This document shows, one piece after another, positions 21,606-51,913 of a DNA stretch of 64,000 nt. The stretch is taken from the NCBI GenBank assembly GCA_964651965.1, contig CAZYZS010000006.1, forward strand, positions 42 to 64,041, written 5' to 3'. The translations under genes and the position numbers were made by a program. The notes beneath the pieces are model-generated. The model worked only from the letters and a program-made list of their open reading frames with translations, did no database searches and was not told the DNA's origin. Within the stretch, counting starts at the first letter, position 1, and every line of letters starts with the position of its first letter. The DNA is from Candidatus Woesearchaeota archaeon. GTDB lineage: Archaea > Nanobdellota > Nanobdellia > Pacearchaeales > GW2011-AR1.

Positions 21606-21633
21606 GGAAGAATTATTATTTATAATATTTCTG

Positions 21634-22455: not shown

Positions 22456-22527
22456 TTTATTGTTTTATTTTGTTTATTTATTTACTTTATAGTAGTATCT
22501 AATTTAGGGCATATTTATATTTTATTC

Positions 22528-22542: not shown

Positions 22543-22546
22543 TAAG

Positions 22547-22554
22547 TTTAAATA
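22547..22554 (+). promoter_or_regulatory. TATA box TTTAAATA, 21 nt upstream of ATG 22576
   Basis: Read directly. Confidence 0.4.
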
Positions 22555-22575
22555 GATGTTAAAGCATTAAATGTT

Positions 22576-23331
22576 ATGAATATATCATTACTCGAAGAGA
22601 TAGGGCTTACAAAAACAGAGATTAAGCTTTACCTAGCCTTGCTCAAACTGGGAGAAAGCTCAACAACTGCAATCATGCAGGAATCTCAGGTTCCAGCTTC
22701 AAAAGTGTATGAATTCTTAGACAAATTGATAAAAAAAGGGCTTGTCAGCTATATAATAAAGAACAATAAAAAATATTTCAGGGCTGAAAACCCAGAAAAC
22801 CTCAAAAATTATTTAGAAGGAAAAAAGGATAAGGTAGACAAACAAATATTACAGGTGAACTCTTTGATTCCAGAGCTTAATTCAATTAGATCTGCTAAAG
22901 AAGAGGAGATTGAAGCATCAGTATATGAAGGTTTAGATGGATTAAAAGCTCTTTATGAAAAAAATTTTAAAGTATTAGAAAAAGGGGATACTCATTATAT
23001 TATTGGTGCACCAAGGATAGGCAATGAAAAGCTTGAAGGCTATTTATTAGATTGGCATAAAAGGAGAATAAAAAAAGGAGTAAAATGCAAATACATTTAT
23101 GATTCTGATGCTAAAGAATACGGGAAAGTAAGAGAAAAAATGCCTTTAACAGAAGTAAAATATCTATCAAAAAATATTGTTTCTCCTGTTTGGATAGAAA
23201 TATTTGGAAATTATGTTGTTACAGGCCATATTACAGAAAAAGGGGCAGTTGCTTTCTTGATAAAAGATAAAGAAATAGCAAAGAAATATCTGCATTATTT
23301 TGAGGTTATCTGGAAAAATGCTAAATCCTAA
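22576..23331 (+). CDS. TrmB-family sugar-responsive transcriptional regulator
   Basis: N-terminal wHTH LLEEIGLTKTEIKLYLALLKLGESSTTAIMQESQVPASKVYEFLDKLIKKGLVSY, plus a C-terminal effector-like domain. Confidence 0.8.
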   Translation: MNISLLEEIGLTKTEIKLYLALLKLGESSTTAIMQESQVPASKVYEFLDKLIKKGLVSYIIKNNKKYFRAENPENLKNYLEGKKDKVDKQILQVNSLIPELNSIRSAKEEEIEASVYEGLDGLKALYEKNFKVLEKGDTHYIIGAPRIGNEKLEGYLLDWHKRRIKKGVKCKYIYDSDAKEYGKVREKMPLTEVKYLSKNIVSPVWIEIFGNYVVTGHITEKGAVAFLIKDKEIAKKYLHYFEVIWKNAKS

Positions 23332-23409
23332 CTACCTTTAATAACAAGAAAACATTTAATAATCCACAATCCAGTTACGTACTATTCATTAATAAAAAAG
23401 AGGTATAAA

Positions 23410-24540: not shown

Positions 24541-24552
24541 AAAAGAAAACAA

Positions 24553-25698
24553 ATGAAAGAAGGAAATCTTAAAGGGCGCGTGATGCTTTATGTTAATCAG
24601 GTACTTAGAACAGCCGGCTTCTCTTTTATTTCTTTATTTATACCTATTTATCTTTTGACTCTTGGATACAGTTTGAATTTCATATTTTTATATACCCTAT
24701 TTTATTATATTTTTGTCTTTGTTTTTTCTATAGTTGCAGTTTATATGGGGAATAAAATTGGATATAGAAGGTTATTCATACTAAATATCTTCGTAGTTAT
24801 TTTTTGGATGTTTTATCTTTCTGTTTTAAAAGATTTTCCGTTATCTATTTATCCCATTTTTTTTATGGGTTTATTGGGGGGGATTGAAGGCGCATTTTTT
24901 TGGACGCCTTTTAATATTCTCTTTGCAAAGTTTGGGAATGAGGGGAGAAGGGGAAGCCAGGTAGGCTTCTTAAGCATCTTTAATCAGCTTAGTTCAATAA
25001 TTGGTCCGGTTATAGGAGCATATCTTGCAGTTACAAGCGGGTTTAGCGAACTAATCTACTTTGCAACTTTTTTCTTTTTCTTATCCCTGCTCCCATTATT
25101 TTTCCTTGAGAATATTAAGCTGAAAACAACAGTTTCTTTAACAGGTCTGAAGAAATTCTACACTTTTCATAAGAGCTTTGCTTATGGTAATGTCTTTCAA
25201 AATATATTCGGGGAGGTACAGGGCATCATCTGGCCGATTTTTATATACCTGATGTTTAATAACAACCTCCTACATGTCGGCTATATTGGAAGTATTATAG
25301 CTGTTGGAACAATCGTCTTCACAGCAATCGTGGGAAAACTCAGCGATAGAATAGATAAACACATTTTGATAAAAATTGGGGGTTTAGCTTTTGCTCTGCT
25401 TTGGGTATTGGTTCTATTTTTTCAGCAGCCGATTTATTTGTACATAATCAGCGCCCTTTTTGGATTTGCAAGCCTCATGATCGCTCTGCCGTTTTCAACT
25501 ATAACTTATAGCAAGGCAGCAAAAGAAGAGGATATAGGGGAGTTTATTGTTTGGACCGAGGCTGCTTCGTTAGTTGGAAGACTGATTTTTATTGCTATAA
25601 TTCTGATTGCCCCTAACAAATTTTCTGCTAGCTTTATAATAGCTTCGTTATCTTGCTTGTACTTTGCAATAGCCAGATTTGAGAAGAAAACTAAGTGA
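24553..25698 (+). CDS. MFS transporter
   Basis: ~10-12 TM; MFS motif-A-like GNKIGYRRLF and GKLSDRIDKH in the two halves. Confidence 0.7.
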   Translation: MKEGNLKGRVMLYVNQVLRTAGFSFISLFIPIYLLTLGYSLNFIFLYTLFYYIFVFVFSIVAVYMGNKIGYRRLFILNIFVVIFWMFYLSVLKDFPLSIYPIFFMGLLGGIEGAFFWTPFNILFAKFGNEGRRGSQVGFLSIFNQLSSIIGPVIGAYLAVTSGFSELIYFATFFFFLSLLPLFFLENIKLKTTVSLTGLKKFYTFHKSFAYGNVFQNIFGEVQGIIWPIFIYLMFNNNLLHVGYIGSIIAVGTIVFTAIVGKLSDRIDKHILIKIGGLAFALLWVLVLFFQQPIYLYIISALFGFASLMIALPFSTITYSKAAKEEDIGEFIVWTEAASLVGRLIFIAIILIAPNKFSASFIIASLSCLYFAIARFEKKTK

Positions 25699-26740
25699 AA
25701 TTAGTTTCTATATATTTCTTTAGTTCTTTCATATTTATTTTATATGCTCTTACAAAAGAATCATCAACATGGCAGTATAAAATGCCCTCATCTTTGGATG
25801 TTTGCACAAATTCGCTTGCAAAAGTTATGCTTTTTGCATCAGGGTCTTCAAATAAAGGCTCTTTTGCTATCCAGGGGATTTCCCCTGTTTTAGTATTGAA
25901 AAGAATTAGACCAGGTTTATAATCTCCACGAACTTCTTTGTTATCCATTTTCTTCTTTGGTTCTCTTCCATTGACAATTACTACTAGGCAATCTCCAAAG
26001 TCTACCATCTCTTTTGGAATGAATCTGCAAGGGGATAATTCTTCTTTGCACCAGTGATAACCTTTTTCTTTTAGGTCAAAAAACGATTTAAGATTCCATG
26101 GCTTTCCCATGTCTTCTGCTTCAACAACTGCAATTGTTTGAAGACTATGCCCGTCTTCCTTTAACTTCCAGGACTCTGTTAAGTTCAGCCTTTTTCCTTT
26201 AGTGGCTATTGGAGAGATTGCCGCTTCTTTAAACCCTCTTATCTTTTGGGATGTCGGACCGAGGATTGGAGGAGTTGCTTTTAGGGTTTCAAGGGTTTTT
26301 CCCTGTGCGTGGCCTAAGTAGATATCAAGCCCGTGCTCGTTTTTATATTTTAAGGCAATTGTAAAATAAATATGTTTTATCTCCTTTTCGTCTGTCCAGA
26401 TATCTGGGTCTTCTAATCCCATTAAAACCTTATCTTTGCCTGCAAGCTTGCTGATTATTTTGTCTATTCCTTTAATTTTCAAATCTGCTACTTTTTTCCA
26501 TTGTAGGCCATTATCGCTTTCAACAATAATTAGCTTGCTTTCATCTGTATTCCCGTAGATTCTGGGATCGTTTTGATTACTCCTTAAGATTTCACGAGCC
26601 AGTCCTTTTACTGGATTATTTGAATTTTTGTCTATTGAAAGAGCCATAACCCTGTGTTCAGCGCTGACTGTTCCGAAAACCGGCTCTTCGTACATTGAAA
26701 CAGCAGAATTAATTTTTTTCCAGCCCATAATAAGATACAT
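25691..26740 (-). CDS. divergent GH130-like beta-propeller protein
   Basis: GLEDPDIW (compare GxEDPR of GH130), repeated beta-strand-rich segments. Weak call. Confidence 0.45.
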   Translation of the reverse strand: MYLIMGWKKINSAVSMYEEPVFGTVSAEHRVMALSIDKNSNNPVKGLAREILRSNQNDPRIYGNTDESKLIIVESDNGLQWKKVADLKIKGIDKIISKLAGKDKVLMGLEDPDIWTDEKEIKHIYFTIALKYKNEHGLDIYLGHAQGKTLETLKATPPILGPTSQKIRGFKEAAISPIATKGKRLNLTESWKLKEDGHSLQTIAVVEAEDMGKPWNLKSFFDLKEKGYHWCKEELSPCRFIPKEMVDFGDCLVVIVNGREPKKKMDNKEVRGDYKPGLILFNTKTGEIPWIAKEPLFEDPDAKSITFASEFVQTSKDEGILYCHVDDSFVRAYKINMKELKKYIETNFT

Positions 26741-26760
26741 TGAAAGAATTATATAAACTT

Positions 26761-27900
26761 TTACTTCAAGTCAAGCCTGTCTTTGGTGATATTAACTATC
26801 TGCTGAGCAATATGCCTGTAATCTAAGTTGTCTAGAACGTGTCTTCTTGCTTGCTTGCCTAGTTTTTCTCTTAGTTGGTCATCTGTTAACAGCTGAAGAG
26901 TGTATTTCCTTAAATCTTCTATATCTGCCCGGTAAGCTAGGGTTTTTGGAGTATCAAACTTTATTTTCTTTTTTTCTTTGAAGCCCATCCAAGGGTAAAT
27001 CCATTCGCTCTTTAGCTGTATCTCTTGAGCCACTTTAGCCAAGAAGCCTGTCTTTCCGTGAATTATAGTCTCTCCTGGCCCCATTTTGTCTATGGATACT
27101 ACCGGCTTTCCGCACGCCATTGCCTCTACTTGCACCATTCCGTAGCCCTCCAGCCTTGAAGGGGCTGCATAGACATCTGAAGCGTTTAACAAATCAGCCA
27201 TGAATTCAGGAGAAAATTCATCATCAATAAAAATTATTTTGTCTCCTATGCCCAGCTCGTCTGCAAGTTGTATTTCAGTGTCTCTCCAGCCATCTGCGCA
27301 CTCACTTGGCCAGGATTTGCAGACGTACTTCCAATCTTTGAACTCTTCATCTATCTGTGCCAATGCCCTAATCATTTCTTGAGCTCCTTTGGATGTGACA
27401 TCTCCACCAACTGTAAGTATCATCTTTTCCTTGTCTTTCACACCAATCATGTCTCTTACTGCCTTTCTTAATCTCTCATCTTTTTTTGGATAAAATTCAT
27501 CTGTGTCAACTCCGATGTGCATTGGGACAATCTTATCTACATCGATTCCATCTCTTTTGTAGACACTTTTCACCCAATCGCTGGTTGTGAACATAAGCTT
27601 AAGCTTGTTGAACTCTTTCTGGTAATTTGCGACCCATCCATCAGAATTAAACCATGGCACTGGAGTGACCCCATGTTTCATCGGCTCTATAACAATGTCT
27701 GGAACGTTTCCCCAGAATCCGATTCCATAAGAAACATCTGGCTTTATATGTTTGAGGTAGAATTCTTTCTGAATGCTCTCTTTAAAATGACAAGGCATCG
27801 CCTGTTCATTGGCATTCAATATCCCCTTGTAAAGCAAATGCCCCTGCAGACTTTGTCCGTCAGGTTCAGGGGGGTAAGCATAAAGCACTAAGCACTTCAT
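26761..27900 (-). CDS. GT4-family glycosyltransferase
   Basis: PSRLEGYGMVQVEAMACGKPVV (E-x7-E region), GT-B length. Confidence 0.85.
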   Translation of the reverse strand: MKCLVLYAYPPEPDGQSLQGHLLYKGILNANEQAMPCHFKESIQKEFYLKHIKPDVSYGIGFWGNVPDIVIEPMKHGVTPVPWFNSDGWVANYQKEFNKLKLMFTTSDWVKSVYKRDGIDVDKIVPMHIGVDTDEFYPKKDERLRKAVRDMIGVKDKEKMILTVGGDVTSKGAQEMIRALAQIDEEFKDWKYVCKSWPSECADGWRDTEIQLADELGIGDKIIFIDDEFSPEFMADLLNASDVYAAPSRLEGYGMVQVEAMACGKPVVSIDKMGPGETIIHGKTGFLAKVAQEIQLKSEWIYPWMGFKEKKKIKFDTPKTLAYRADIEDLRKYTLQLLTDDQLREKLGKQARRHVLDNLDYRHIAQQIVNITKDRLDLK

Positions 27901-34971: not shown

Positions 34972-36264
34972 TTACATCCAATTAATTTTTAAGAAATGCG
35001 TGGCGCAGGACATACATGGGTCATAGGCTCTTATCATTTTTTCTGCTTCGAATGCAATTTCATCTTTGCTTTTCCCTTCTCCTAATAGGAAAGTTACATA
35101 TTTTGCAAGGTCTTTTTGTAGGTGCATTATATTTTGTTGCGTTGGGATGCATAAATCAGCAAAATTAACAATACCTTGGTTGTCAAAAGCGAGATGATAA
35201 TATAAAGTGCCTCTTGGAGCTTCAACAACTCCGATTCCTACCGATTCTCTTGGCTTGACTTTTATGATTTTTTCTGGTTTTATTGTATCTTTAAGCTCAT
35301 TTAGAATAGAAAGAGAGTTGTCTACTTCATGAAGCATCTCAATTGCCTGTGCTGTATTATTGTTGAAAACACAGCTATTTGGAAAAATATCTAAGAACTT
35401 TCCCGCATCCTTCCTCGTTCTTTTGTTTAAATGATGGTGATTCAAGTTCATTCTTGCCAAAGCTCCTACCATGAAGTCCTCTGATTCCCAGGTGAAAGAG
35501 GCGGCAGTTGAGTATGGGAGAACAACTCTTTCTAAATGCAGCCCGTATTTTTCTTCGGGGATATTGGAGCCATAAGCGGTTCTTATAATCCCCTTAAGAT
35601 AGTTATAATCGTCGTTGCATAAGGCAACATAATTAGTTTTTCTTTTGAAAGTTGTCTTATCATCATAAAATACCTTTATTATTTTTAAGATTCTTTCTCT
35701 TGTATCTTCTAGCTTTTTTATTGCCTCTTCCAGTTCTTGCTTTTTTGGGAACTTTGTAAATCCGCCTATAGCCGCATTTGGGGGATGAATTGCCCTGCCT
35801 CCAATTATTGTTGATAAGAAATTGCCAGCATCTTTAATATGGAGAGCATCGTGAATCCACTCTTTTTCCTCTCCTGTAAAGTCAAGAGCAGAATCTTTTC
35901 CTAAAATATCTGGAAGACAGAAAAAATAGAGATGCATTGCATGGTCTCTTAAATGAGAGCTATAAGAGAGAAGATTTCTCAGCTTAAATGTTTGTTCAGT
36001 TACATTTAATCCAAAGGCTTTTTCTATTGCTTCTATTGAACATAAAACATGGGAAGAAGAGCAAGTTCCACAAATTCTCGACATTGTTGTAGGGACAGCC
36101 AGATAATTTTGCCCAAGGGCAGCTGTCCTAAAAAAACGTTTGTTTTCGCTTACTTTTAATTTGCATTTCTCGGCCTTATTGTTCCTTACAATAATATCCA
36201 AGTGAGTATGCCCTTCTATCTTGGAGATGTTTCTTATTGTTAGATCGAAGTCTTGTGAATGCAT
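34972..36264 (-). CDS. [NiFe]-hydrogenase large subunit (small cytoplasmic, group-3-like)
   Basis: 430 aa. N-terminal RICGTCSSSH (RxCGxCxxxH) and C-terminal DPCMSCATH (DPCxxCxxH) followed by the 7-aa tail FLKINWM. Confidence 0.9.
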   Translation of the reverse strand: MHSQDFDLTIRNISKIEGHTHLDIIVRNNKAEKCKLKVSENKRFFRTAALGQNYLAVPTTMSRICGTCSSSHVLCSIEAIEKAFGLNVTEQTFKLRNLLSYSSHLRDHAMHLYFFCLPDILGKDSALDFTGEEKEWIHDALHIKDAGNFLSTIIGGRAIHPPNAAIGGFTKFPKKQELEEAIKKLEDTRERILKIIKVFYDDKTTFKRKTNYVALCNDDYNYLKGIIRTAYGSNIPEEKYGLHLERVVLPYSTAASFTWESEDFMVGALARMNLNHHHLNKRTRKDAGKFLDIFPNSCVFNNNTAQAIEMLHEVDNSLSILNELKDTIKPEKIIKVKPRESVGIGVVEAPRGTLYYHLAFDNQGIVNFADLCIPTQQNIMHLQKDLAKYVTFLLGEGKSKDEIAFEAEKMIRAYDPCMSCATHFLKINWM

Positions 36265-36277
36265 GTTATTTTTTATT

Positions 36278-36541
36278 TCAAATATTCCTCCCGTATATAA
36301 ACCATCCTATGTCTACTAATAAAACGCCAATAACTCCAATAGTATTAGAGAGGATTAATGGAAAACTTTTTATTTCTATTCCATAAAGTACCCACATTAT
36401 TGCCCCAATTGTGAGGATAGAGCAAGTTATTATCGATATATCTTTGGCGGATTTCTTCTTGAAAATCTTATAGGCTTGCGGTAAATTAGCCAAGGCCATT
36501 AAAGTTCCGAATATTGTTGCTAGAGATGAGATAATTGTCAT
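36278..36541 (-). CDS. SemiSWEET / PQ-loop (MtN3) 3-TM transporter
   Basis: 87 aa, three TM, LANLPQAYKIFKKKSAKDISIITCSILTIGAIMWVLYGI matches the bacterial SemiSWEET pattern (PQ motif, basic loop, WxxYG). The start overlaps the small-subunit stop as ATGA. Confidence 0.8.
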   Translation of the reverse strand: MTIISSLATIFGTLMALANLPQAYKIFKKKSAKDISIITCSILTIGAIMWVLYGIEIKSFPLILSNTIGVIGVLLVDIGWFIYGRNI

Positions 36542-37029
36542 TTTAGATATTCCTCCATTTTTTTCATCATATCTTTTTCTTCTACAGGGCAGCCGTTTAT
36601 TTCGTCATCTACCTTTACATAAGTTTTTAATGGTTCTATTGTTGGCTTTTGCCTAAATCTAACTAGCAAGGGCTGGATGCTCCTCTTTTTTGCATCATCA
36701 AATTTATTTCTTTGATTGGATGGATAGCCATTTGCAGCTCCGCTGCCCAATGCCACAAGGAATTTTGCTTTTTGTCTTATTTCCTTTAATTTTTTTATCT
36801 CACTGTCTATCGAGATTGCGCCTTCTACAAATGCAATATCCATTCTGTGAATTTTATCCTCTTTTTTTAATGCCCTGAAATTAACTATTTTTATTTTGCT
36901 CATGTAATCTTCGAACTTAGTGTTTAATGTTTCAATGAAACTTATAGAACAGCCTTCACAGCAAGTAAATGAGAAAAATCCCACCCTTTTCTTCATCCCA
37001 AATAAATCTCTGAAAAAGCTCATTTTCAC
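36538..37029 (-). CDS. [NiFe]-hydrogenase small subunit (proximal-cluster-only, group-3-like)
   Basis: 163 aa: FTCCEGCSISF, VEGAIS, LVALGSGAANG, INGCPV. No Tat signal and no medial/distal cluster domain. Confidence 0.8.
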   Translation of the reverse strand: MKMSFFRDLFGMKKRVGFFSFTCCEGCSISFIETLNTKFEDYMSKIKIVNFRALKKEDKIHRMDIAFVEGAISIDSEIKKLKEIRQKAKFLVALGSGAANGYPSNQRNKFDDAKKRSIQPLLVRFRQKPTIEPLKTYVKVDDEINGCPVEEKDMMKKMEEYLK

Positions 37030-44487: not shown

Positions 44488-44562
44488 ACTGGTTAATTTA
44501 ATTTATCAAAATGTTTAAATATGCTATTTTGTTAATGTATCAATTAGAAAAGAGGGCTAATT

Positions 44563-47500
44563 ATGGCAAAAAAAAAGAGTAATAAAAACATAAAAGAGAA
44601 CATACCTTTTTTTACTAAACCCTTCAAGGAAAAAGGTAAGGGCAAGAAAAGTCTAAGGAAAAAAAGTTCCATCTTCAAGAAGATAGACCAAAAAGAAGAA
44701 GATATAATCGCCGGAGCTTTTAAGAACAAGCTTTCTAAGCCCAAGGCCAAGTCCAAACCAGAAAAAGAGAAAGTTATAGTTGCTCCTTCCAAGCCAAAGA
44801 GCAAGAATAAAAACCTCTATCTGATTATAATCCTAGTGGCTATATTGTTGCTAATTGTATTTTTCTTTCTAATCTACTTGCTTTATCCTTATTTAGAAAG
44901 ACCGAGAGATAGAAATCTTGAAGCAGGAGAGAATGTCGAGACTGCAGTTGTTAGAGCAGACTCTACTTTAGATGTACACCTCAAAGATTTTAATCCTGAT
45001 ACTCTTTTATCTGTGAAATTTATCCTTCTAGGAAATGCAGAATATTACTACGAAACTAGCGGTATAAAACAGGACTATACTTTCTATCCTTCTGACTTTG
45101 GAATAAACAATTTTGATTCGGTAGTTAAAGCAAGCGCGGTTTTCACCTATAAAACCGAGCCAGTTCCTCCTGGAGGCGGAACTACTCCTCCTACTCAAAC
45201 AAAACCTAACTGCACCGATGGAAAAAAGAATGGCGGTGAAACAGGGGTAGATTGCGGAGGGAGTTGCAAGGCATGTAGTCCTCCGGGTGGAGGTGGAGGA
45301 AGCCCAGGGGGTGGAAGCGAAACTCCTTGTACACCTAAAACCTGCGCAGATTATGCTGGAAAGTGCGGGAGTTTTTCTAATGGTTGTCCTGGAGGGACAT
45401 TAACCTGCACGTGCAGCGAGGGATTTTATTGTTATACAGGAGCAGGGGCTTCATCAAGTGTTTGTGTTAATAATTCTTTTAGCTGTGTTGATTCTGATGG
45501 AGGAAAAGATTACTATACCAAAGGAAATGTAACTGTCAATAATTCTAATACGATTATATCTAAAGAAGATACTTGTTTTGGCAGTTTAACTGAGTTTTTT
45601 TGCTATTATAATGGAAGTGTTTTTGAAGCAAGAAACGAGAGCTATAAATGCCCTTACAGATGTAAACTTACAGGAGGAGCATGCGAGAGACTTCTATGTG
45701 AGGCAGATGCCAACTGCACAACTTTAAACCTCCCTAAAATAGAATCATGTACTAATATTCCTGATAGCAATCCTTTTACCTGGGATTATAGGAATGAGTT
45801 CATTAGCACTTGTGTAAGCAAGGAATGTACCTATGGAGACGAAAGCGTAAGCAGCAAATGCATTAACACTAAATGTGGAGCAGAGTGCAACGATGGAGAT
45901 ACTCAAGAATCTGCAAATACCTATTGTTTAAACAACGATCTTTATAGATTTGTTTATGAGTGCAACAGCACATGCAGGCTTTCTAATTTAAGCACTGCAA
46001 ATGATATTCTTTCGGATAATTGTGTGAGAACCTGCAATCCAAGCGGATGCAACTTCACCACTAGAAAATATGTCACTTATAATGCGAGTTCTGATTTATG
46101 CCCAAACAACAGGTGCGTAGAGCCTGCTAACTGCACTACGCCTATTTCATCAGTTTGCGATAAAGATTGCGGAGCAGAGTGCGAAAATGATGATAACTGT
46201 ATAGGTGAAAAAGTGTGTGATAGCAACTGTAATTGTCAGGGATTTGAATGTACCAGCCATGTTAGCTGTGGAGCAGGCAAATACTGCGATTCATCTGGAG
46301 TATGCCAACCTAGATTAAACGAAGGAACAGACTGCGGAGGAGTGGAACATCCTGTCTGGCCAGGGCAGTCTACAGATTATGTTTGTTCTGGGCAATGCAA
46401 GGCAGACTATGATGGAGACGGAAAATACTGCGTAGCACTCGCTTCTTCTTGTACTCATAATGCAGTAACTTATCTTGATGGTTCACGCGCTCCTGATTGT
46501 CTTAGCTCAACTAACGAGAGAAAATGTATGATTGGGATATGGACATCTGGAACAACTTGCGAGGATGCTGACAAGTGCAATGGCATTTCGGAGTGTGAAG
46601 ATGGGGCATGCCAACCAGGCACCTCTCTTATTTGCAATGATAATAACGCATGTAATGGTCTAGAAACTTGCAGTCCTGCTTCTGGATGTGTTGATGGGAT
46701 CGCTCCTAATTGCAATGATTTGGTTGGTTGCACTGAAGATAGCTGCCACCCTCTTTCAGGATGCATGAATCTTCTTAACGATAGCAAATGTGAAGTCTGG
46801 GAGTCTTGCACTTCTCCTGGTGGATGTGTTCAAAGTTCATGTTCTGGTTGCACTGATTGCAATGTATGGAATAAAACTGCCGAACCTTGCGATTATAATA
46901 AATGTCATAATAAATGCAATAAAATAGGAAGCTGCTACTTCTCTGGGAATGTCCTTGGACCTTGCGTTTCTTTAACCACTGCATGCTCTTCGATAACTGC
47001 CTGCGCGGATTATTCACAGGCTGAATGCGAAAATGACCCCTGTGGGAAATCTGATACCGGTTGCATATGGGATGCAGATACTTGCATAGTAAAACCGGTA
47101 TGCGGAAATAATGTTCTAGAAAGAACAGAGGTTTGCGATAACTCCCAATTGGGTGGAAAAACATGTGGGAGTTTCTTTGATCATGCAAGTCCAATACCGG
47201 GCGCGGAAACATTAAGATGTTGCAGTTCTACGAGTCCTCCTAATTGCAGCAGTTTTGACTTTTCCTCCTGCAAAAATAAGACTTATACTTCTTGTAGTGA
47301 TAGCGATGGAGGACTAGATTACTATACTTACGGAAGACTGAGCAGTCTTCAATATACTTTTAATTATGGGGCCGATTGTAGTGGAGCCATAAGGTATGGT
47401 GGTGTAGGATCAGAGATTGGCGGCTATAATGATTATTGTGTTGGCGAAAATACTTTAAGAGAGTATTACTGTGACGCAGATAAATCGCCGCATTATGTGG

Positions 47501-47643
47501 ACTATTCTTGCGGTGCTGGGCACAATCTATGCAATAATAGGCGTGGAGTGTGTGTCGGTGGCTACCTGCCTTCATTGAGCATATGGGAAAGCATAAAGCA
47601 GTTTTTTAGCAACTTATTCCAAATGATCTTGGGTCTATTTTAA
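44563..47643 (+). CDS. giant cysteine-rich type-II-anchored surface protein (1026 aa)
   Basis: Lys-rich ~95-aa N-terminus, a single TM (LYLIIILVAILLLIVFFFLIYLLY), then a ~900-aa ectodomain with ~95 Cys by hand count, Gly/Pro linkers (PPGGGGGSPGGGSETP), the motif NCTDGKKNGGETGVDCGGSCKAC and a repeated C-x-DSDGG-x-DYYT-x-G...EYYC module. AAAGAGGG SD upstream. Confidence 0.85.
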   Translation: MAKKKSNKNIKENIPFFTKPFKEKGKGKKSLRKKSSIFKKIDQKEEDIIAGAFKNKLSKPKAKSKPEKEKVIVAPSKPKSKNKNLYLIIILVAILLLIVFFFLIYLLYPYLERPRDRNLEAGENVETAVVRADSTLDVHLKDFNPDTLLSVKFILLGNAEYYYETSGIKQDYTFYPSDFGINNFDSVVKASAVFTYKTEPVPPGGGTTPPTQTKPNCTDGKKNGGETGVDCGGSCKACSPPGGGGGSPGGGSETPCTPKTCADYAGKCGSFSNGCPGGTLTCTCSEGFYCYTGAGASSSVCVNNSFSCVDSDGGKDYYTKGNVTVNNSNTIISKEDTCFGSLTEFFCYYNGSVFEARNESYKCPYRCKLTGGACERLLCEADANCTTLNLPKIESCTNIPDSNPFTWDYRNEFISTCVSKECTYGDESVSSKCINTKCGAECNDGDTQESANTYCLNNDLYRFVYECNSTCRLSNLSTANDILSDNCVRTCNPSGCNFTTRKYVTYNASSDLCPNNRCVEPANCTTPISSVCDKDCGAECENDDNCIGEKVCDSNCNCQGFECTSHVSCGAGKYCDSSGVCQPRLNEGTDCGGVEHPVWPGQSTDYVCSGQCKADYDGDGKYCVALASSCTHNAVTYLDGSRAPDCLSSTNERKCMIGIWTSGTTCEDADKCNGISECEDGACQPGTSLICNDNNACNGLETCSPASGCVDGIAPNCNDLVGCTEDSCHPLSGCMNLLNDSKCEVWESCTSPGGCVQSSCSGCTDCNVWNKTAEPCDYNKCHNKCNKIGSCYFSGNVLGPCVSLTTACSSITACADYSQAECENDPCGKSDTGCIWDADTCIVKPVCGNNVLERTEVCDNSQLGGKTCGSFFDHASPIPGAETLRCCSSTSPPNCSSFDFSSCKNKTYTSCSDSDGGLDYYTYGRLSSLQYTFNYGADCSGAIRYGGVGSEIGGYNDYCVGENTLREYYCDADKSPHYVDYSCGAGHNLCNNRRGVCVGGYLPSLSIWESIKQFFSNLFQMILGLF

Positions 47644-47676: not shown

Positions 47677-48474
47677 ATGGCTCACTATTTAAGAAATCTA
47701 AAGCAAGTAAGTAAAGTAGATTGTTCTTGTGGTTGGAGTAGGAGGCCATTTGCTGACCATCCGGCGTATGCTATCGCAAGCTTACATGGAACTATTTTCA
47801 CAGCTGAAAAAGAGGCATTTCCCCATTTTCATGTTCCAGTAGGCGATAGGAGGGCTACACACGAAACTTATCTAGTAACTTCTGAAAATACAAGAAGGGG
47901 CGCTCTAATTTATCTGGGAAAGATGGCAGTCGAAGCAAAACCCGGAATTGTTGTTTATGTTCATCCAAACACAGTTCACGGGGGTATCGGCAATTTTACA
48001 GCTTTAATCTTGGGTTCTCCTGGTTTTTCGAAAGAGGGTAATGTCGAAATTGATGACACTGAAAGCAAAGATACAATCATACTTAGGAGTAAGGGAAATA
48101 TAATTACACCCTCAGAGTACAAAGAGGGACTTGTTTTGCTAACTGCTAAGAAACCTACATTATCCTTTTCACATTTTTATGGTAAAGAAGGAATAGCTTT
48201 ATTATTAACCCAAACAGTTGAGAATAGACTATATTGCGCAGCAGTTCCGTATGATAGATTAGATTGGGACGCTTTTCAAAGAGCAAATGGTCCTACCTAT
48301 GTAACTGTGCTTGGTGGAGAAGGAAGTATTCATATCGAAGGTGGAGAGACAGCAGTTAGAGAACTAGATACTTTATTATTAGAGCAAGGAACAAGCTTCT
48401 CGTTAGAGGGGGGCTTGTCAACGGCTATTATGGTCTTACATCCACAAAACGTAGAAAAATTGATAAGACATTAG
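47677..48474 (+). CDS. hypothetical cupin-like protein
   Basis: FPHFHVPVGDRRATHETYLV...VVYVHPNTVHG resembles a cupin metal motif. The C-terminal half may be a second beta-barrel. Ala/Gly/Arg-richer composition than neighbouring genes. Confidence 0.45.
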   Translation: MAHYLRNLKQVSKVDCSCGWSRRPFADHPAYAIASLHGTIFTAEKEAFPHFHVPVGDRRATHETYLVTSENTRRGALIYLGKMAVEAKPGIVVYVHPNTVHGGIGNFTALILGSPGFSKEGNVEIDDTESKDTIILRSKGNIITPSEYKEGLVLLTAKKPTLSFSHFYGKEGIALLLTQTVENRLYCAAVPYDRLDWDAFQRANGPTYVTVLGGEGSIHIEGGETAVRELDTLLLEQGTSFSLEGGLSTAIMVLHPQNVEKLIRH

Positions 48475-48480
48475 ATAAGT

Positions 48481-49614
48481 TTACCAGTATTTTTCATAGA
48501 TATTAAAGGTTTTTTTGGCTATTATGTTCCAGCCAGAAACATTTTTCACATATGCTAGGGCATTTCTGCTGTATTTTTCTCTTAGTTTTTTGTCTGCTAA
48601 AAGCCTGTTTATTGCTCTCCAGAAATGCCTTCTGTTTTTTACTGCTATTCCTGCATGGCTGTTCCTTATCTCTGCCCCAAGCCCTTCAATATCAGTTACA
48701 ATTGAAGGAGCTCCAACTGAGAATCCGTGAGCTAAAACTCCTGACTGACTTTCACTTTTATAAGGAAGAATATGAATATCAAAACTTGCCAGCCTTCTAT
48801 AAAATTCTATTTCGCTATAATTCTTCACACTAAATTCAATGTTTTTCATTACAGGGGAGGCTAAGATAGCCTCTAGGACTTTATCAATATACAACCGAGT
48901 TTCAATTACAGATTCTGGCTTTAATTCAAGGGCCAAAATGGCATTTGGAAACCTTTTTACTACCCTTGGCCACTGCTTAATCAGTGTTCTGAATCCTTTT
49001 CTCTCGCTTGCCAATCCAGCTGTTCCTACTACCAAGTCTTTGTCTGTATAACCAAAAGCTTTTCTGACCTCTTCTTTGTTTATTTTGACATCTTCTCTTG
49101 AACCATGGGGGAGGATATACACATTTTTAGGCGCCCATCCTATATTCTTTTTCAAGTTGTCTTTTTGATATTGTTCATGTAGAATTCCTGCATCAAGTTT
49201 TTTCAGAGACTCGCTTACAAAGTAGGAAAAATCAGGATTAAGCTCTGCATAAACGCTATGATAAGTCATAACAACAGGAATGCCGAGTTCTTTAATCATT
49301 CCGATAAGTTCAAGTACTCTTTTATTTTTATCCTGCTCTGTTTCGTACAAGCCATATTCATGCTGTATATGTACTATCGAGGGTTTTTCTTTTTTAATAA
49401 CGGCAAGAACTTTATAATGCCATTCTTTATCATTTTTATTGTAGATAACTTGATAATCTGCCATCTCTGCATCGGTATGCGCAATTATCTTAAACTGTAT
49501 TTTCTTTCCTGTTTTTTTGGCATATTTTTTTATTGAAGAAATATAATTTTCTGAATAGAAAGCAATACCACACTGCCTAGGCAAGTAACTTGAAATCCAT
49601 ACCACTTTTTTCAT
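48481..49614 (-). CDS. GT4-family glycosyltransferase
   Basis: GT-B length; GTAGLASERKGF, ILPYKSESQSGVLAHGFSVGAPSIVTD. Confidence 0.75.
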   Translation of the reverse strand: MKKVVWISSYLPRQCGIAFYSENYISSIKKYAKKTGKKIQFKIIAHTDAEMADYQVIYNKNDKEWHYKVLAVIKKEKPSIVHIQHEYGLYETEQDKNKRVLELIGMIKELGIPVVMTYHSVYAELNPDFSYFVSESLKKLDAGILHEQYQKDNLKKNIGWAPKNVYILPHGSREDVKINKEEVRKAFGYTDKDLVVGTAGLASERKGFRTLIKQWPRVVKRFPNAILALELKPESVIETRLYIDKVLEAILASPVMKNIEFSVKNYSEIEFYRRLASFDIHILPYKSESQSGVLAHGFSVGAPSIVTDIEGLGAEIRNSHAGIAVKNRRHFWRAINRLLADKKLREKYSRNALAYVKNVSGWNIIAKKTFNIYEKYW

Positions 49615-49663
49615 GCATAAAAAAAGAAAGGCGGCTTTAAATAGGTTTTGATTTATTTGTTTT

Positions 49664-51913
49664 TTACTTCTTCTCTCTCTTCAATTCTTCCAAGAAAAGT
49701 CTTGCAGTAAGATAAGAGATAGTAGATTCTGCGCCCTGGTTTAGGTTTACAGTGTGCCTTCCTAGTCCATCATAACATCCACCCGTTGCCTCGTCGTACA
49801 TCATCTGCTTTAAATGATTTTTTCCTAAGAACCAGTTAAAAGCTAACACCGCCTTATCGTAGAAATCTTTTTCTTTGGTTATTTTGTAGGCTGTTAAGTA
49901 TGTTAAAACAAGTCCAGAAACATCTAAAGGTTGTTGGTCAAAGAAAGCCCGCTCTCCATGCCTATTATACCATCCATTTTGCCCAATTGGACAGAATTCT
50001 CCATCTATAAGAGTAAGATTTGTTAGAAAGTCAAGAGTTTTTCTTGCAACTTCTAAGTATTGCTTATCTCCAGTTAAGCTATGAGCGAAAAATAGAGATT
50101 CTGGAAGAGTGGAATTGGAGTAAGTTAAAATAGCCTCGAACCAGTGCCATTCCTTTGAAGACTCTCTTTTATAGAGGCTTGTTAAATCGTTTGCAAGCTT
50201 CCTTAATTTGGATAGGGTTTCTATGTTCCCTTGGCTTTGGTAATAATGGCCTAACCCAAGGATGCAAGAAGCTTTTGCCCTTGGGGATGTTATATTGTCG
50301 ATATGGCTAATAGACCTATCAAACAATAGCTTTGCCTTTTCTTTAATTTCAGGGTCATTGGAGTTATTTATGGCAAAGCCCAAAGCCCAGATTGCCCTTC
50401 CAAAGGAATCCTGGCTATGCGGATTAGTCAGCTCTTCTTCGTTGCCTAAATTGTTTTTGAAGTTTCCATCTTGCTCCTGGGCTTTTTCTAAAAATTGAAG
50501 GTAAGTTTTTGATAGTTTTGAGGAAAGGTCTGAAGAAGGGCTATCGTACATTTTAGAGTGCTGAACCGCAAAAATCAGCGCTCTAGCATTATCGTCTAAA
50601 GTATATCCAGAGCTTTTGTCAGGAGCAGAGTGCCTGCAGAATTGTATCATTCCCACTTCGTCAGTTAGATTCCTTAGATGGTTTAGCTTAATCTTAGGGA
50701 ACTTTTCAATAGTTTCTTCTCTAAGCTTTACTATTTCATTAAATATTCTAAGATACTGTATGGCTACGTTTCTCCAGGTCATTTGCCTTGAGAAAGCGTA
50801 AGCTAACCTCTCCATCTCTTTTTTCATTTCTGGATTGGAAAGTATTTTGTCAATGGCTCTTGCAAAAGCGTCTGGATTCTTGAACTCTGCTAGCATTCCT
50901 CTTCCGTCGGCTAGGAGCTCTTCTGCGCAAAAACTCGGGGTGGCGACAACTGCTCTTCCCCCATAACCAATAGCTTCTGCAATAGGCCCGCTGGACATCT
51001 GATTCCTCTCTAAATTTGTTCCGATATAGATATCTGCAGCAAGCATATATTGAATCCATTCTTCATCACTCACATACTTATTGTAGAACTTGACATGCTT
51101 GTCCACACCTAATTTTTTGGAGAGATTTATAAGCTCGTTTCTATAGCTTTCTCCTTCGTGCTTTCTTACAGCAGGATGAGTTTCTCCAACCACTAGATAA
51201 AGCAGCTCAGGATATTTCTTGACTAGTTTGGGCAGGGCCTGAATCATATATTCTATGCCTTTTCCTCTGCTAACAAGCCCGATGGTAAGCAGGACTGTCT
51301 TTCCACTTAAGCCGAGCTTCTTTTTGGCATTTTCAGTTCCTTGGAAAGGAACATTTTCAATTCCGTGATAGACAACGCGAATCTTTTCTCTCTCAATTCC
51401 GTAATCTTTGACAAGTATATCTGCAGCAGCATTTGCCAGGACAATAAGAGCTGAAGAGCGCTTGGCAATTGATTGAACTACTCTTTTCATTTGGTCGTCG
51501 GGGTCTGGAAGTACCGTATGAAAAGTAACCACGACTGGCTTTTGCAGGGCTTCTAGAAATGGAACAATATAACTCCCATACTCCCCTCCAAAAATTCCAA
51601 ATTCGTGCTGGACGCATATAATCTTTAGGTCCTCTGACTCGTTGATTCTTTTTGCTATTTCTATATAACTCTCTATATCATTTTTGGAGACTTGGTGAAT
51701 TACCCTGTTACTATAATCATAAAAGCTCTCTTCGTCATTTATTGCTATAACCTTAGACTTCACCTTAGGATTCCATTGCTTATCCATAGCAGATGACAGA
51801 TGCTTGCTAAAAGTGGCTATCCCGCATTCTTTAGGCGGAAAATTGCTAAAAAAACAAACTTTGGAATTTGGAAGACAATCAGAGAGGTCATCTTCCTCGT
51901 CTTTAATTTTCAT
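49664..51913 (-). CDS. GT4 glycosyltransferase fused to a C-terminal (alpha/alpha)-barrel-like domain
   Basis: 749 aa. The N-terminal ~390 aa is GT4 (LLTIGLVSRGKGI, GTNLERNQMSSGPIAEAIGYGGRAVV). The C-terminal ~350 aa is helical-repeat rich (DDNARALIF, GRAIWALGF, FDQQPLDVSG, GGCYDGLG). Confidence 0.7.
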   Translation of the reverse strand: MKIKDEEDDLSDCLPNSKVCFFSNFPPKECGIATFSKHLSSAMDKQWNPKVKSKVIAINDEESFYDYSNRVIHQVSKNDIESYIEIAKRINESEDLKIICVQHEFGIFGGEYGSYIVPFLEALQKPVVVTFHTVLPDPDDQMKRVVQSIAKRSSALIVLANAAADILVKDYGIEREKIRVVYHGIENVPFQGTENAKKKLGLSGKTVLLTIGLVSRGKGIEYMIQALPKLVKKYPELLYLVVGETHPAVRKHEGESYRNELINLSKKLGVDKHVKFYNKYVSDEEWIQYMLAADIYIGTNLERNQMSSGPIAEAIGYGGRAVVATPSFCAEELLADGRGMLAEFKNPDAFARAIDKILSNPEMKKEMERLAYAFSRQMTWRNVAIQYLRIFNEIVKLREETIEKFPKIKLNHLRNLTDEVGMIQFCRHSAPDKSSGYTLDDNARALIFAVQHSKMYDSPSSDLSSKLSKTYLQFLEKAQEQDGNFKNNLGNEEELTNPHSQDSFGRAIWALGFAINNSNDPEIKEKAKLLFDRSISHIDNITSPRAKASCILGLGHYYQSQGNIETLSKLRKLANDLTSLYKRESSKEWHWFEAILTYSNSTLPESLFFAHSLTGDKQYLEVARKTLDFLTNLTLIDGEFCPIGQNGWYNRHGERAFFDQQPLDVSGLVLTYLTAYKITKEKDFYDKAVLAFNWFLGKNHLKQMMYDEATGGCYDGLGRHTVNLNQGAESTISYLTARLFLEELKREKK

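What the first reader, a model, noticed from the sequence alone, without database searches (positions are those of the whole stretch)
44563..47643. 1026-aa cysteine-rich, probably glycosylated, membrane-anchored surface protein with internal repeated modules
The architecture has three parts. First comes a ~95-aa Lys-rich cytoplasmic N-terminus. Then a single TM. Then a ~900-aa ectodomain with ~95 Cys by hand count. The ectodomain contains Gly/Pro linkers and a compact NCTDGKKNGGETGVDCGGSCKAC motif. It has two copies of a C-x-DSDGG-x-DYYT-x-G ... L-x-E-(F/Y)-(F/Y)-C module, near aa 305-345 and aa 905-975. A run of C-x-D-x-N-x-C-N-G-x-E-x-C type repeats (CNDNNACNGLETC, CEDADKCNGISEC) is reminiscent of the cysteine-rich repeats of Myxococcales and DUF4215 proteins. 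There are at least a dozen N-x-S/T sequons (NVT, NNS, NGS, NES, NCT, NST, NLS, NFT, NAS, NDS, NKT, NCS). In an episymbiotic small-genome archaeon such a protein is a prime candidate for host attachment. Disulfide-rich ectodomains of this size are unusual for archaea.
Basis: partly seen in the sequence, partly recalled or inferred. Interest (0 to 1): 0.7.

Follow-up and report, generated by a model that had tools for sequence, protein, structure and literature searches.

The report
Fast-evolving cysteine-rich archaeal surface protein
This is a real 1026-residue membrane-anchored, cysteine-packed surface protein of a Pacearchaeota (DPANN) archaeon; it belongs to an undescribed family that hangs swappable modules between a conserved membrane-proximal domain and a conserved C-terminal amphipathic tag, and it evolves far faster than its neighbouring genes.

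Summary
ORF 44563-47643 (+) encodes 1026 aa: a Lys-rich tail, one TM (aa 86-108) and an ectodomain with 96 Cys and 16 sequons. Both DSDGG-DYYT modules and the NCTDGKKNGGETGVDCGGSCKAC motif are present. Pfam, NCBIfam and PDB give no significant hit.

Relatives are Pacearchaeota and Woesearchaeota proteins that share a chassis:
- a cytoplasmic tail and a TM;
- a Cys-free beta-sandwich, "domain A";
- a Cys-rich stem plus a DSD module;
- variable cargo (LamG, beta-helix, subtilase, or only Cys modules as here);
- a ~20-aa amphipathic tag at the extreme C-terminus.

All 25 C-terminally complete members have the tag, including 9 not used to define it. No unrelated ORF has it. Two 275-297-aa members are just tail, TM, domain A and tag.

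The positional orthologue in Pacearchaeota RBG_13_36_9 is 610 aa. It is 50% identical at the N-terminal end, while flanking genes are 84-92% identical, and its central modules are different.

Aa 661-745 resemble Dicty_CTDC repeats but score below threshold; there is no DUF4215 or Myxococcus-repeat hit. Sequons are not enriched (P=0.17), though four sit at family-conserved positions.

Best reading: a displayed, disulfide-stabilised interaction protein. Host attachment is plausible but untested.

The parts
44514..44556 (+). Putative expression signals: a TATA-like TTTAAATAT (44514-44522) and an SD-like GAGGG (44552-44556, 7-11 nt before the ATG).
   Evidence: Read by eye. This is inference only; the promoter scan tool models sigma-70 promoters and was not used.
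44563..44817 (+). Cytoplasmic N-terminal tail, aa 1-85. It is Lys-rich with net charge +21. It contains the motif KEEDIIAGAFKNKL (aa 44-57, nt 44692-44733).
   Evidence: The tail is 50% identical to that of orthologue P0002. Similar EEDIAEVIRKKL-type motifs occur in the tails of paralogue arrays L003 and L014.
44818..44886 (+). Single transmembrane helix (signal anchor), aa 86-108.
   Evidence: It is the only Kyte-Doolittle window above 1.6. AF2 models a helix at aa 83-111 with pLDDT >90.
44890..45159 (+). Domain A, aa 110-199: a Cys-free membrane-proximal beta-sandwich that is the hallmark of the family.
   Evidence: An HMM from 29 members scores the target at 83 bits and hits no other ORF of the window. 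AF2 models 6 strands plus a short helix at pLDDT ~90. The best Foldseek matches are FN3/Ig-like but weak (E 0.09, TMt 0.54). Pfam gives no hit.
45160..45207 (+). Pro/Gly/Thr linker, aa 200-215.
   Evidence: Sequence. pLDDT <50.
45208..45276 (+). Four-Cys mini-module NCTDGKKNGGETGVDCGGSCKAC, aa 216-238.
   Evidence: The same module occurs in 23 of the 167 fetched proteins (184 copies, up to 32 per protein). These include T9SS-tailed metalloproteases (Pfam PF18962 tail), presumably bacterial. No Pfam or NCBIfam model covers it.
45277..45321 (+). Gly-rich linker, aa 239-253.
   Evidence: pLDDT <50.
45322..45477 (+). Cys 'stem' module, aa 254-305 (CTPKTCADYxGxCG...YCYxGxG).
   Evidence: Alignment A2 has invariant Cys columns across 12 members. 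AF2 pLDDT is 84-90.
45478..45687 (+). DSD module 1, aa 306-375 (C-V-DSDGGKDYYTKGNVT ... LTEFFCYYNGSVFEARNESYKC). It carries the family-conserved sequons N322, N350 and N358; N303 lies just upstream.
   Evidence: AF2 shows a beta-rich fold at pLDDT 86-90. It is 44% identical to modules in the non-family protein P0009.
45688..45972 (+). 'PDSNPFTWDY' Cys module, aa 376-470.
   Evidence: It is shared with P0003, P0015, P0053, P0100, P0026 and the 954-aa ORF of L014.
45973..46542 (+). Central Cys-rich region, aa 471-660. Only one relative, P0026, has a homologous stretch.
   Evidence: P0026 matches target aa 345-861 at 37% identity. The region is absent from the positional orthologue P0002.
46543..46797 (+). 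Dicty_CTDC-like repeats, aa 661-745 (CEDADKCNGISEC, CNDNNACNGLETC ...).
   Evidence: This is the region matched by most of the best 150 of 1686 hits. Sampled hits are Pfam PF00526 proteins. The target itself scores 17.4 bits, E=0.004, below the cutoff of 27.
46798..47097 (+). Further Cys-rich modules, aa 746-845.
   Evidence: Sequence. Similar stretches appear in P0051 and P0026 (by eye).
47098..47277 (+). 'CGNNVLExxEVCD' module, aa 846-905.
   Evidence: Alignment A3 with P0002, P0075, P0090 and P0091 shows invariant C-G-N ... E-x-C-D. There is no TIGR02232 or DUF4215 hit.
47278..47562 (+). DSD module 2, aa 906-1000 (CSDSDGGLDYYTYG ... LREYYC).
   Evidence: AF2 pLDDT is only 48-82 by 10-residue block, mostly about 70-80 in the C-terminal half.
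47563..47640 (+). C-terminal amphipathic tag, aa 1001-1026 (YLPSLSIWESIKQFFSNLFQMILGLF), followed by the stop codon at 47641-47643.
   Evidence: The tag HMM scores 29 bits here and hits nothing else in the window. The tag is present in all complete family members, including 9 independent ones. Hydrophobic moment is 0.62 against a background of 0.28. AF2 models a helix at aa 1007-1025. No NCBIfam sorting-signal model matches.

Best explanation
The gene encodes a bitopic type II (N-in/C-out) cell-surface protein of a Pacearchaeota archaeon. It belongs to an uncurated family found in Pacearchaeota and Woesearchaeota that works as a display chassis.

Chassis layout:
- The Lys-rich tail stays in the cytoplasm.
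- One TM helix anchors the protein.
- A Cys-free beta-sandwich (domain A) sits on the membrane.
- Flexible Gly/Pro/Thr linkers follow.
- A rigid stalk of small Cys-rich modules (stem, DSD, PDSNPF, Dicty_CTDC-like, CGNN) projects outward.
- A ~20-residue aromatic amphipathic helix ends the chain.

In other members the stalk carries LamG lectin-like, beta-helix, subtilase or phosphoesterase heads. In this protein the cargo is Cys modules only, ending in a second DSD module.

Inferred, not shown:
- The 96 Cys form about 48 disulfides that stiffen the stalk.
- Conserved sequons in DSD module 1 are N-glycosylated.
- The protein mediates contact with other cells or surfaces.
- The C-terminal helix acts as a second attachment point. 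It could lie in the membrane interface or dock onto a partner such as domain A.

Shown:
- the anatomy of the protein;
- family membership;
- strict co-occurrence of domain A and the tag;
- module swapping between positional orthologues;
- much faster divergence than the neighbouring genes.
For: Anatomy:
- AF2 gives a confident TM helix, domain A sandwich and stem plus DSD module.
- Most tails carry a net positive charge, which fits N-in topology.

Family:
- 29 proteins share domain A directly after the TM.
- 12 share the stem plus DSD module, with 14 invariant Cys.
- Cargo varies: LamG, beta-helix, S8 protease, metallophosphatase.

The tag:
- It is present in every C-terminally complete member.
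- Nine members not used to build the HMM score 7-29 bits. All unrelated ORFs of the same loci score <=0.6.
- The tag also occurs on Cys-free or Cys-poor members.
- Minimal members consist of tail, TM, domain A and tag only.
- The tags are amphipathic: mean hydrophobic moment 0.59 against 0.31 for background. AF2 predicts a helix.

Rapid evolution:
- The orthologue P0002 lies in conserved synteny.
- It is 50% identical over aa 15-305, and its central modules are different.
- Flanking genes are 84-92% identical.

Supporting context:
- Relatives are strongly enriched in sequons (z=3-7), and four target sequons sit at conserved sequon columns.
- Glycan-related genes flank the target: ROK and GHMP sugar kinases upstream, two GT4 glycosyltransferases downstream.
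- In Nanoarchaeota, hypothetical proteins with a single N-terminal TM carry the highest non-synonymous SNP densities (PMC6142677).
Against: - No experiment or homologue of known function ties the protein to adhesion.
- The target has no recognisable lectin or enzyme head.
- Its own sequon count is not enriched (P=0.17).
- Disulfide formation by a probably anaerobic organism (a NiFe hydrogenase is in the window) needs an oxidant and an oxidoreductase. None was found in the 64 kb; only a cytoplasmic-type pyridine nucleotide-disulfide oxidoreductase is present.
- The role of the tag is pure inference.
- The AF2 model of the C-terminal part is poor (mean pLDDT 54.6).
- The family census is small (~30 proteins), because the profile searches were limited by word filters.
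Confidence: 0.6

Rival explanations
1. The C-terminal tag is a true sorting signal. An unknown enzyme or machinery recognises it and removes or modifies it. The mature protein is then released, or covalently or lipid-attached, by analogy with PGF-CTERM/archaeosortase, PEP-CTERM/exosortase, LPXTG/sortase or T9SS C-terminal domains.
For: - The tag sits at the extreme C-terminus on proteins with very different cargo.
- A small conserved motif (LPSLS, SLSPF) precedes the helix.
- The tag is absent from other exported proteins of the window, such as the nucleases at 6923-7714 and 7801-8508. It therefore marks a specific subset.
Against: - No curated sorting-signal model matches the tags.
- The segment after the motif is too short and too polar to be the TM helix plus basic tail that sortase- or exosortase-type signals have. 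P0002 has only about 12 residues there. No second hydrophobic window above KD 1.6 exists in the target.
- The proteins already have an N-terminal anchor with a conserved cytoplasmic tail.
- No candidate processing enzyme was seen in the window.
Confidence: 0.15
2. It is a structural envelope or S-layer component. Domain A and the tag mediate head-to-tail or lateral self-assembly into a surface lattice, and the Cys modules act as spacers.
For: - Domain A and the tag are conserved together, and minimal members consist of little else.
- Relatives are rich in sequons, as archaeal S-layer glycoproteins are (the S-layer comparison is my knowledge).
- The tags are amphipathic helices of roughly 14-19 residues, which might also pack as short bundles.
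Against: - Genomes carry several paralogues with enzymatic or lectin heads. S-layers normally use one or two proteins (PMC5744192 abstract).
- The positional orthologue differs by 416 aa and has different modules. That is hard to reconcile with a conserved lattice.
- Pfam scans of the whole protein and of nine segments returned no S-layer family, or any family above its cutoff.
Confidence: 0.12
3. The Cys-rich ectodomain binds metals or metal clusters (metal sequestration or redox) rather than forming disulfides.
For: - Cys content is very high (9.4%), with CxxC-like spacings such as CSGCTDC and CDKDCGAEC.
- The organism probably lives anaerobically (a hydrogenase is in the window; synteny).
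Against: - The Cys positions follow small-module patterns typical of extracellular disulfide knots, such as Dicty_CTDC relatives.
- The total Cys count is even (96), and there are 14 invariant Cys in the stem plus DSD module.
- No His/Cys metal-site family or Fe-S family was hit.
Confidence: 0.05
4. It is a non-functional accretion or pseudogene of shuffled Cys-repeat DNA.
For: The central ~530 aa have no counterpart in the closest orthologue.
Against: - The 3081-nt frame is uninterrupted in AT-rich DNA.
- An identical protein is recorded on two contigs from NCBI and JGI.
- The central part is 37% identical to P0026 over aa 345-861, with Cys positions kept.
- Both chassis ends are conserved.
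- Plausible TATA-like and SD-like signals precede the start.
Confidence: 0.02

Closest known systems
Pfam PF00526 Dicty_CTDC ('Dictyostelium (slime mold) repeat') proteins
   Same: Aa 661-745 carry C-x-D-x-N-x-C-(N/T)-G-x-E-x-C units. Most of the best 150 of 1686 representative hits align only to this stretch, and the sampled ones are PF00526 proteins.
   Different: The target's own repeats score 17.4 bits against a cutoff of 27. They make up only ~8% of the protein. PF00526 proteins lack domain A and the C-tag.
Archaeosortase/PGF-CTERM and related C-terminal sorting signals (Haft et al. 2012; my knowledge)
   Same: A short conserved signature sits at the extreme C-terminus of a subset of surface proteins with diverse cargo.
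   Different: There is no TM helix plus basic cluster after the motif. No NCBIfam model matches. The proteins keep an N-terminal TM anchor.
C-terminal amphipathic-helix membrane anchors such as E. coli PBP5/PBP6 (my knowledge)
   Same: A terminal amphipathic helix of about 14-19 residues with an aromatic or hydrophobic face lies on the outer side of the cytoplasmic membrane.
   Different: There is no sequence relationship. In the target the helix adds to a true TM anchor at the other end. Membrane binding was not tested.
Fast-evolving 'hypothetical external' proteins of Nanoarchaeota (PMC6142677) and SPEARE proteins of Ca. Nanohaloarchaeum antarcticus (PMC6642349, title and abstract only)
   Same: These are DPANN surface proteins with an N-terminal TM. 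They diversify quickly and are proposed to mediate host contact.
   Different: No sequence homology was detected. Those proteins are not reported as Cys-rich, and no shared chassis or tag is described for them.
Uncurated 'C-x-DG-x-x-NG-x-ETG-(V/I)-DCGG-x-C-x-x-C' mini-module of T9SS-tailed metalloproteases (presumably Bacteroidota)
   Same: Target aa 216-238 are 62-78% identical to single units of these arrays.
   Different: The target has a single copy used as a linker element. Those proteins carry up to 32 tandem copies and have protease or T9SS domains.

Membership tests
Pacearchaeota/Woesearchaeota 'domain A ... C-tag' chassis family (uncurated, defined here) | A single N-terminal TM helix immediately followed by domain A. 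| tested here: met
   The TM is at aa 86-108. The domain A HMM scores 83 bits at aa 110-199.
Pacearchaeota/Woesearchaeota 'domain A ... C-tag' chassis family (uncurated, defined here) | An amphipathic tag at the extreme C-terminus. | tested here: met
   The tag HMM scores 29 bits at aa 1000-1022. Hydrophobic moment is 0.62. AF2 models a helix.
Pacearchaeota/Woesearchaeota 'domain A ... C-tag' chassis family (uncurated, defined here) | A Cys stem plus DSD module with 14 invariant Cys (the Cys-rich subgroup). | tested here: met
   Alignment A2: the target is 33-43% identical to the other members, and all invariant Cys are present.
Pfam PF00526 Dicty_CTDC | HMM score at or above the gathering cutoff of 27 bits. 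| tested here: not met
   17.4 bits, E=0.004 on segment aa 646-760. There is no hit on the whole protein.
Myxococcus cysteine-rich repeat (TIGR02232) / DUF4215 (PF13948) | A match to the family HMM. | tested here: not met
   No hit in NCBIfam at E<=0.01. No hit in Pfam at E<=10 on nine segments.
Archaeosortase-type C-terminal sorting domains (PGF-, PEF-, PIP-CTERM and similar) | A signature motif followed by a TM helix and a basic cluster, with a match to the curated model. | tested here: not met
   NCBIfam at E<=10 on eight tags gives no sorting model. There is no second hydrophobic window above KD 1.6.
Sortase LPXTG substrates | LPXTG followed by a hydrophobic segment and a positively charged tail. 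| tested here: not met
   The motif is LPSLS, SLSPF or variants. P0002 has only ~12 residues after it and no basic tail.
Archaeal S-layer protein families | A match to S-layer domain models, and a single dominant conserved gene. | tested here: not met
   Pfam and NCBIfam returned no family above its curated cutoff, so no S-layer model. There are several paralogues with different heads, and the orthologue is 416 aa shorter.
FN3/Ig-like beta-sandwich (fold of domain A) | A significant structural match. | tested here: inconclusive
   The best Foldseek PDB hits are FN3 scaffolds, but with E=0.09-0.4 and TMt ~0.5.
N-glycosylated archaeal surface glycoprotein | Sequons enriched and/or conserved; an AglB oligosaccharyltransferase present; glycans detected. 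| tested here: inconclusive
   The target is not enriched (P=0.17). Four sequons lie at columns where 8-11 of 12 members have a sequon, and relatives show z=3-7. No AglB is in the window. Glycans cannot be tested here.
Diversity-generating retroelement (DGR) target protein | A template/variable repeat pair and a nearby reverse transcriptase. | tested here: not met
   The window has no direct repeat of >=40 nt apart from the 43-nt DSD motif pair and one chance pair. No reverse transcriptase appeared among the 35 window ORFs scanned; about 14 ORFs of >=150 aa were not scanned.
Disulfide-bonded extracellular protein | Cys paired in disulfides, and an oxidoreductase system present. | not testable with these tools
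   Only indirect evidence is available: an even Cys count (96), invariant Cys columns, and no Cys in the tail, TM, domain A or tag.

The most novel reading that the evidence does not exclude
Domain A and the C-terminal amphipathic tag are the two ends of a lineage-specific surface-display system of Pacearchaeota and Woesearchaeota.

Any cargo inserted between them is exported, held at the envelope at both ends (or closed or polymerised by tag-domain A docking), and can be exchanged by module shuffling. Cargo seen so far: lectin, protease, polysaccharide-lyase-like beta-helix, or bare Cys-knot stalks.

The tag would then be a new kind of archaeal C-terminal anchoring or sorting signal. It would also be a sequence handle that picks out the host-interaction repertoire of these uncultivated episymbionts directly from genomes.
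Probability: 0.3. Interest if true: 0.75.

Novelty: new variant of a known kind. Interest (0 to 1): 0.55.

Why it matters
Pacearchaeota and Woesearchaeota are abundant, uncultivated, small-genome archaea. How they contact other cells is unknown.

This protein and its relatives give:
- a concrete, recognisable class of rapidly diversifying surface proteins;
- a simple two-part signature (domain A after the TM, plus the C-terminal amphipathic tag) that could be used to list the whole displayed repertoire of a genome;
- a possible new C-terminal anchoring signal in archaea;
- several Cys-rich modules with no solved structure and no curated model.

It also raises the question of how an apparently anaerobic archaeon oxidises ~48 disulfides outside the cell.

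Tried and rejected
Searches that found nothing:
- Pfam on the whole protein and on nine segments, and NCBIfam: nothing above cutoff.
- PDB sequence search with the protein and with profiles A2 and A3: only chance hits with E>0.5.
- Foldseek of the aa 82-380 model against PDB and BFVD: no hit at E<=1e-3.
- NCBIfam on eight C-terminal tags: no sorting-signal model, only sub-threshold bacteriocin-like noise.
- Viral contigs: no relative.
- Rfam and tRNA scans of the window: empty, so there is no rRNA-based taxonomy.
- Literature searches: no description of the family or the tag.

Searches limited by the tools:
- Profile searches with A2 and A4 in the word-indexed protein database returned only 1 and 2 proteins. 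The family census therefore rests on the representative search, one genome scan and one metagenome scan.
- An exact look-up of the target's own contig failed.
- The AF2 model of aa 840-1026 was poor and was not used for fold search.

Ideas rejected:
- DGR target: no template/variable repeats.
- Tandem DNA repeats: none of note.
- Sequon enrichment in the target: P=0.17.
- Internal repeats other than the DSD pair: not significant.
- AMP-binding gene as a synteny marker: only 38% identical, probably a paralogue.

Full report
**1. Observation**

The ORF at 44563..47643 (+) is real and encodes 1026 aa.

Composition:
- 96 Cys (9.4%), all between aa 217 and 997.
- 28 Lys in the first 94 residues.
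- One hydrophobic segment, aa ~86-108.
- 16 N-x-S/T sequons.

The other 48 ORFs of >=150 aa in the window contain 0-3.0% Cys, so the protein is a clear outlier.

Motifs and repeats:
- NCTDGKKNGGETGVDCGGSCKAC is at aa 216-238.
- The two DSDGG-DYYT modules start at aa 308 and 911. The protein self-match has E=7e-7. A 43-nt DNA repeat at 45484-45526 and 47293-47335 is 77% identical.
- CEDADKCNGISEC and CNDNNACNGLETC are at aa 666 and 691.
- No other internal repeat is significant.

Upstream of the ATG there is a TATA-like TTTAAATAT and a GAGGG (read by eye).

**2. What the standard libraries say**

- Pfam on the whole protein and on nine sub-segments, and NCBIfam, give nothing above threshold. 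The only lead is Dicty_CTDC (PF00526) at 17.4 bits against a cutoff of 27, E=0.004.
- PDB sequence and profile searches give nothing.

**3. Organism**

- The closest named relative of the protein is from Candidatus Pacearchaeota archaeon RBG_13_36_9.
- That gene (P0002) sits in the same gene order as in the window: NiFe hydrogenase, Oxidored_q6, AMP-binding, ROK kinase, GHMP kinase, then the surface protein.
- The flanking proteins are 84-92% identical between the two organisms.
- The window therefore comes from a close relative of that Pacearchaeota MAG.
- No rRNA or tRNA gene lies in the window.

**4. Three classes of relatives**

A full HMMER scan of 1.84 billion representatives found 1686 hits at E<=1e-3, 82 of them at E<=1e-30. 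They fall into three classes.

(i) Most align only to aa ~660-745.
- These are often giant proteins with up to 62 matched stretches.
- Those sampled are Pfam Dicty_CTDC proteins.

(ii) A second class aligns only to aa ~211-240.
- This is a four-Cys mini-module found in tandem arrays, up to 32 copies, in T9SS-tailed metalloproteases and others.
- No Pfam or NCBIfam model covers it.

(iii) About 20 proteins share the overall architecture.

One genome scan and one metagenome scan using the conserved E(Y/F)(Y/F)CY(Y/F)NG peptide added loci from Pacearchaeota RBG_13_36_9 (a second paralogue), a Woesearchaeota MAG and JGI metagenomes. No relative was found in viral contigs.

**5. The family chassis**

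Comparison of these proteins shows a fixed frame with variable content.

From N to C:
- A cytoplasmic tail of 2-148 aa, usually net positive.
- One TM helix.
- A Cys-free domain of ~90-120 aa, called domain A here.
- A Gly/Thr/Pro linker.
- In the Cys-rich subgroup, a 'stem' (CTPKTCxDYxGxCG...YCYxGEG) and a DSD module (C-x-DSD...YY-x-KGNVT...NLTEYYCYYNGSxFEARNESYxC). Together they have 14 invariant Cys.
- Variable modules and heads: LamG, parallel beta-helix, S8 subtilase, metallophosphatase.
- At the very end, a ~20-residue tag with consensus roughly (L/V)PSLS(I/P)(W/F)xxIxxF(F/L)KxLFGF.

Domain A:
- An HMM of domain A built from 29 members hits the target at aa 110-199 (83 bits).
- It hits no other ORF of the window and none of the ~140 non-family proteins fetched.

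The tag:
- A tag HMM likewise hits only family members.
- As an independent test, nine ORFs from loci L003, L012, L014 and L015 were not used to build the tag HMM. They score 7-29 bits in their last 35 residues. Every unrelated ORF of the same loci scores <=0.6.
- All 25 C-terminally complete members carry the tag. In a few (P0004, P0006, P0111) an extension or a second copy follows it.

Breadth of the chassis:
- The tag is also present on Cys-poor LamG proteins.
- It is present on two minimal proteins of 275 and 297 aa that consist only of tail, TM, domain A, a ~20-aa linker and the tag.
- The Cys-rich part is therefore cargo, not the defining feature.

**6. Structure**

AF2 on aa 82-380 with 12 aligned sequences gave mean pLDDT 78:
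- a TM helix at aa 83-111;
- a beta-sandwich of six strands plus a short helix for domain A (pLDDT ~90);
- disordered linkers including the mini-module (<50);
- a beta-rich stem plus DSD module (84-90).

Foldseek against PDB found no hit at E<=1e-3. The best hits were FN3/Ig-like scaffolds (E 0.09, TMt 0.54), presumably to domain A. BFVD gave nothing.

AF2 on aa 840-1026 was poor (mean 54.6), but it modelled the tag as a helix at aa 1007-1025.

Hydrophobic-moment analysis shows the tags are strongly amphipathic: mean 0.59 against ~0.31 for random ectodomain windows, and the target's tag scores 0.62. The non-polar face is rich in Trp and Phe.

**7. Evolution**

- P0002 is the positional orthologue, but it is 610 aa long.
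- Aa 15-305 of the target (tail, TM, domain A, mini-module) are 50% identical to it.
- The C-terminal CGNN-DSD2-tag block also aligns (32% identity over the whole second BLAST segment, aa 601-1015).
- The ~530 central residues have no counterpart. P0002 has other Cys modules there, which it shares with P0003 and P0006.
- The target's central part is instead 37% identical to P0026 over aa 345-861.
- With neighbours at 84-92% identity, the surface protein diverges far faster than its surroundings and exchanges modules.
- Elsewhere the family occurs as tandem arrays: five chassis genes in L003 and four in L014.
- No DGR-type repeat explains the variation here.

**8. Glycosylation**

- The target's 16 sequons do not exceed the composition-matched expectation of 12.5+-3.2 (P=0.17).
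- Relatives are strongly enriched (z=3-7).
- The target's N303, N322, N350 and N358 fall on alignment columns where 8-11 of 12 members have a sequon.
- The gene lies among sugar kinases and GT4 glycosyltransferases.
- Glycosylation is plausible but unproven.

**9. Mechanism**

Shown:
- a type II single-pass topology is the only one consistent with the sequence;
- there is a conserved membrane-proximal domain and a conserved terminal amphipathic helix;
- the cargo is modular and fast-evolving.

Inferred:
- The Cys modules form a disulfide-stiffened stalk.
- The protein mediates contacts with other cells or surfaces, as proposed for fast-evolving N-terminally anchored proteins of Nanoarchaeota (PMC6142677).
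- The tag is a second attachment point, either in-plane membrane binding or docking to domain A or a partner.

I put 0.6 on this overall reading. I put much less on any specific role for the tag.

Rivals:
- a processed sorting signal (0.15);
- a structural or S-layer-like assembly (0.12);
- metal binding (0.05);
- a non-functional accretion (0.02).

**10. Comparison with known systems**

- The protein is not a member of Dicty_CTDC (below cutoff).
- It is not a member of DUF4215 or the Myxococcus repeats (no hit).
- Its tag does not match any curated C-terminal sorting family.
- It did not match any S-layer family.
- It resembles modular adhesin-like surface proteins in general.
- Its tag resembles C-terminal amphipathic anchors such as that of PBP5, by analogy only (my knowledge).
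- Seven literature searches found no description of this family or of the tag.

**11. Verdict**

- The protein is a member of an uncurated, lineage-restricted display family, which makes it a new variant of a known kind of system.
- The most interesting product of the follow-up is the two-part chassis signature: domain A plus the amphipathic tag at the extreme C-terminus.
- Interest: 0.55.

Noticed in passing
L003 16938-22525 and L014 ~10200-14448: In two metagenome loci a tandem array of chassis-family genes is followed by a run of small ORFs and an ~810-830-aa DUF87/HerA-VirB4-like ATPase. The two ATPases have near-identical C-termini. This could be a dedicated export or assembly machine, or a mobile element. 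The two loci are orthologous, so they count as one observation.
   Followed up: partly
window 44692-44733 (aa 44-57), and the N-terminal tails of ORFs in L003 and L014: The cytoplasmic tails carry a loosely conserved acidic-then-basic motif. It reads KEEDIIAGAFKNKL in the target, KDEEIITGSLKNKL in P0002 and EEDIAEVIRKKL in the arrays. This hints at a cytoplasmic partner.
   Followed up: partly
window 47677-48474 (+): A 265-aa ORF lies 33 nt downstream of the target on the same strand. It has no family hit above threshold, only weak cupin-like matches at E~0.02. It is Arg/His-rich, unlike its Lys-rich neighbours, and is not in the same position in the RBG_13_36_9 orthologous locus.
   Followed up: partly
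window 6923-7714 (-) and 7801-8508 (+): Two adjacent exported nucleases: an Exo_endo_phos protein with a signal-like N-terminus and a staphylococcal-nuclease homologue with an N-terminal TM. They would fit nucleotide scavenging by a reduced-genome archaeon. Neither has the C-tag.
   Followed up: no
window 5121-5807 (-): A free-standing LAGLIDADG homing-endonuclease-like ORF lies next to thymidylate kinase. A LAGLIDADG_3 gene is also present in L003.
   Followed up: no
window 34972-37029 (-): NiFe hydrogenase large subunit and an Oxidored_q6 subunit. They are 92% and 87.5% identical to those of Pacearchaeota RBG_13_36_9, which implies an anaerobic, H2-linked metabolism. That sharpens the question of how extracellular disulfides are formed.
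   Followed up: partly
window 19454-27900 and 48481-51913: The window is dense in carbohydrate genes: a PGI-like SIS protein, a GDE_C/GH100-like protein, a TrmB regulator, a GH130 phosphorylase, an MFS transporter and three GT4 glycosyltransferases (one of them 749 aa). The target sits in a glycan-metabolism neighbourhood.
   Followed up: no
window 45484-45507 and 47293-47316 (aa 308-315 and 911-918): The DSDGG(K/L)DY core of the DSD modules fits the DxDxDG calcium-binding loop pattern (my knowledge; not tested). Similar modules occur in the non-family protein P0009, which also has CARDB and Big_7 domains.
   Followed up: no
window 11575-12429 (+): A 284-aa Zot/nSTAND-like P-loop NTPase with an N-terminal hydrophobic segment. 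Its function is unknown.
   Followed up: no
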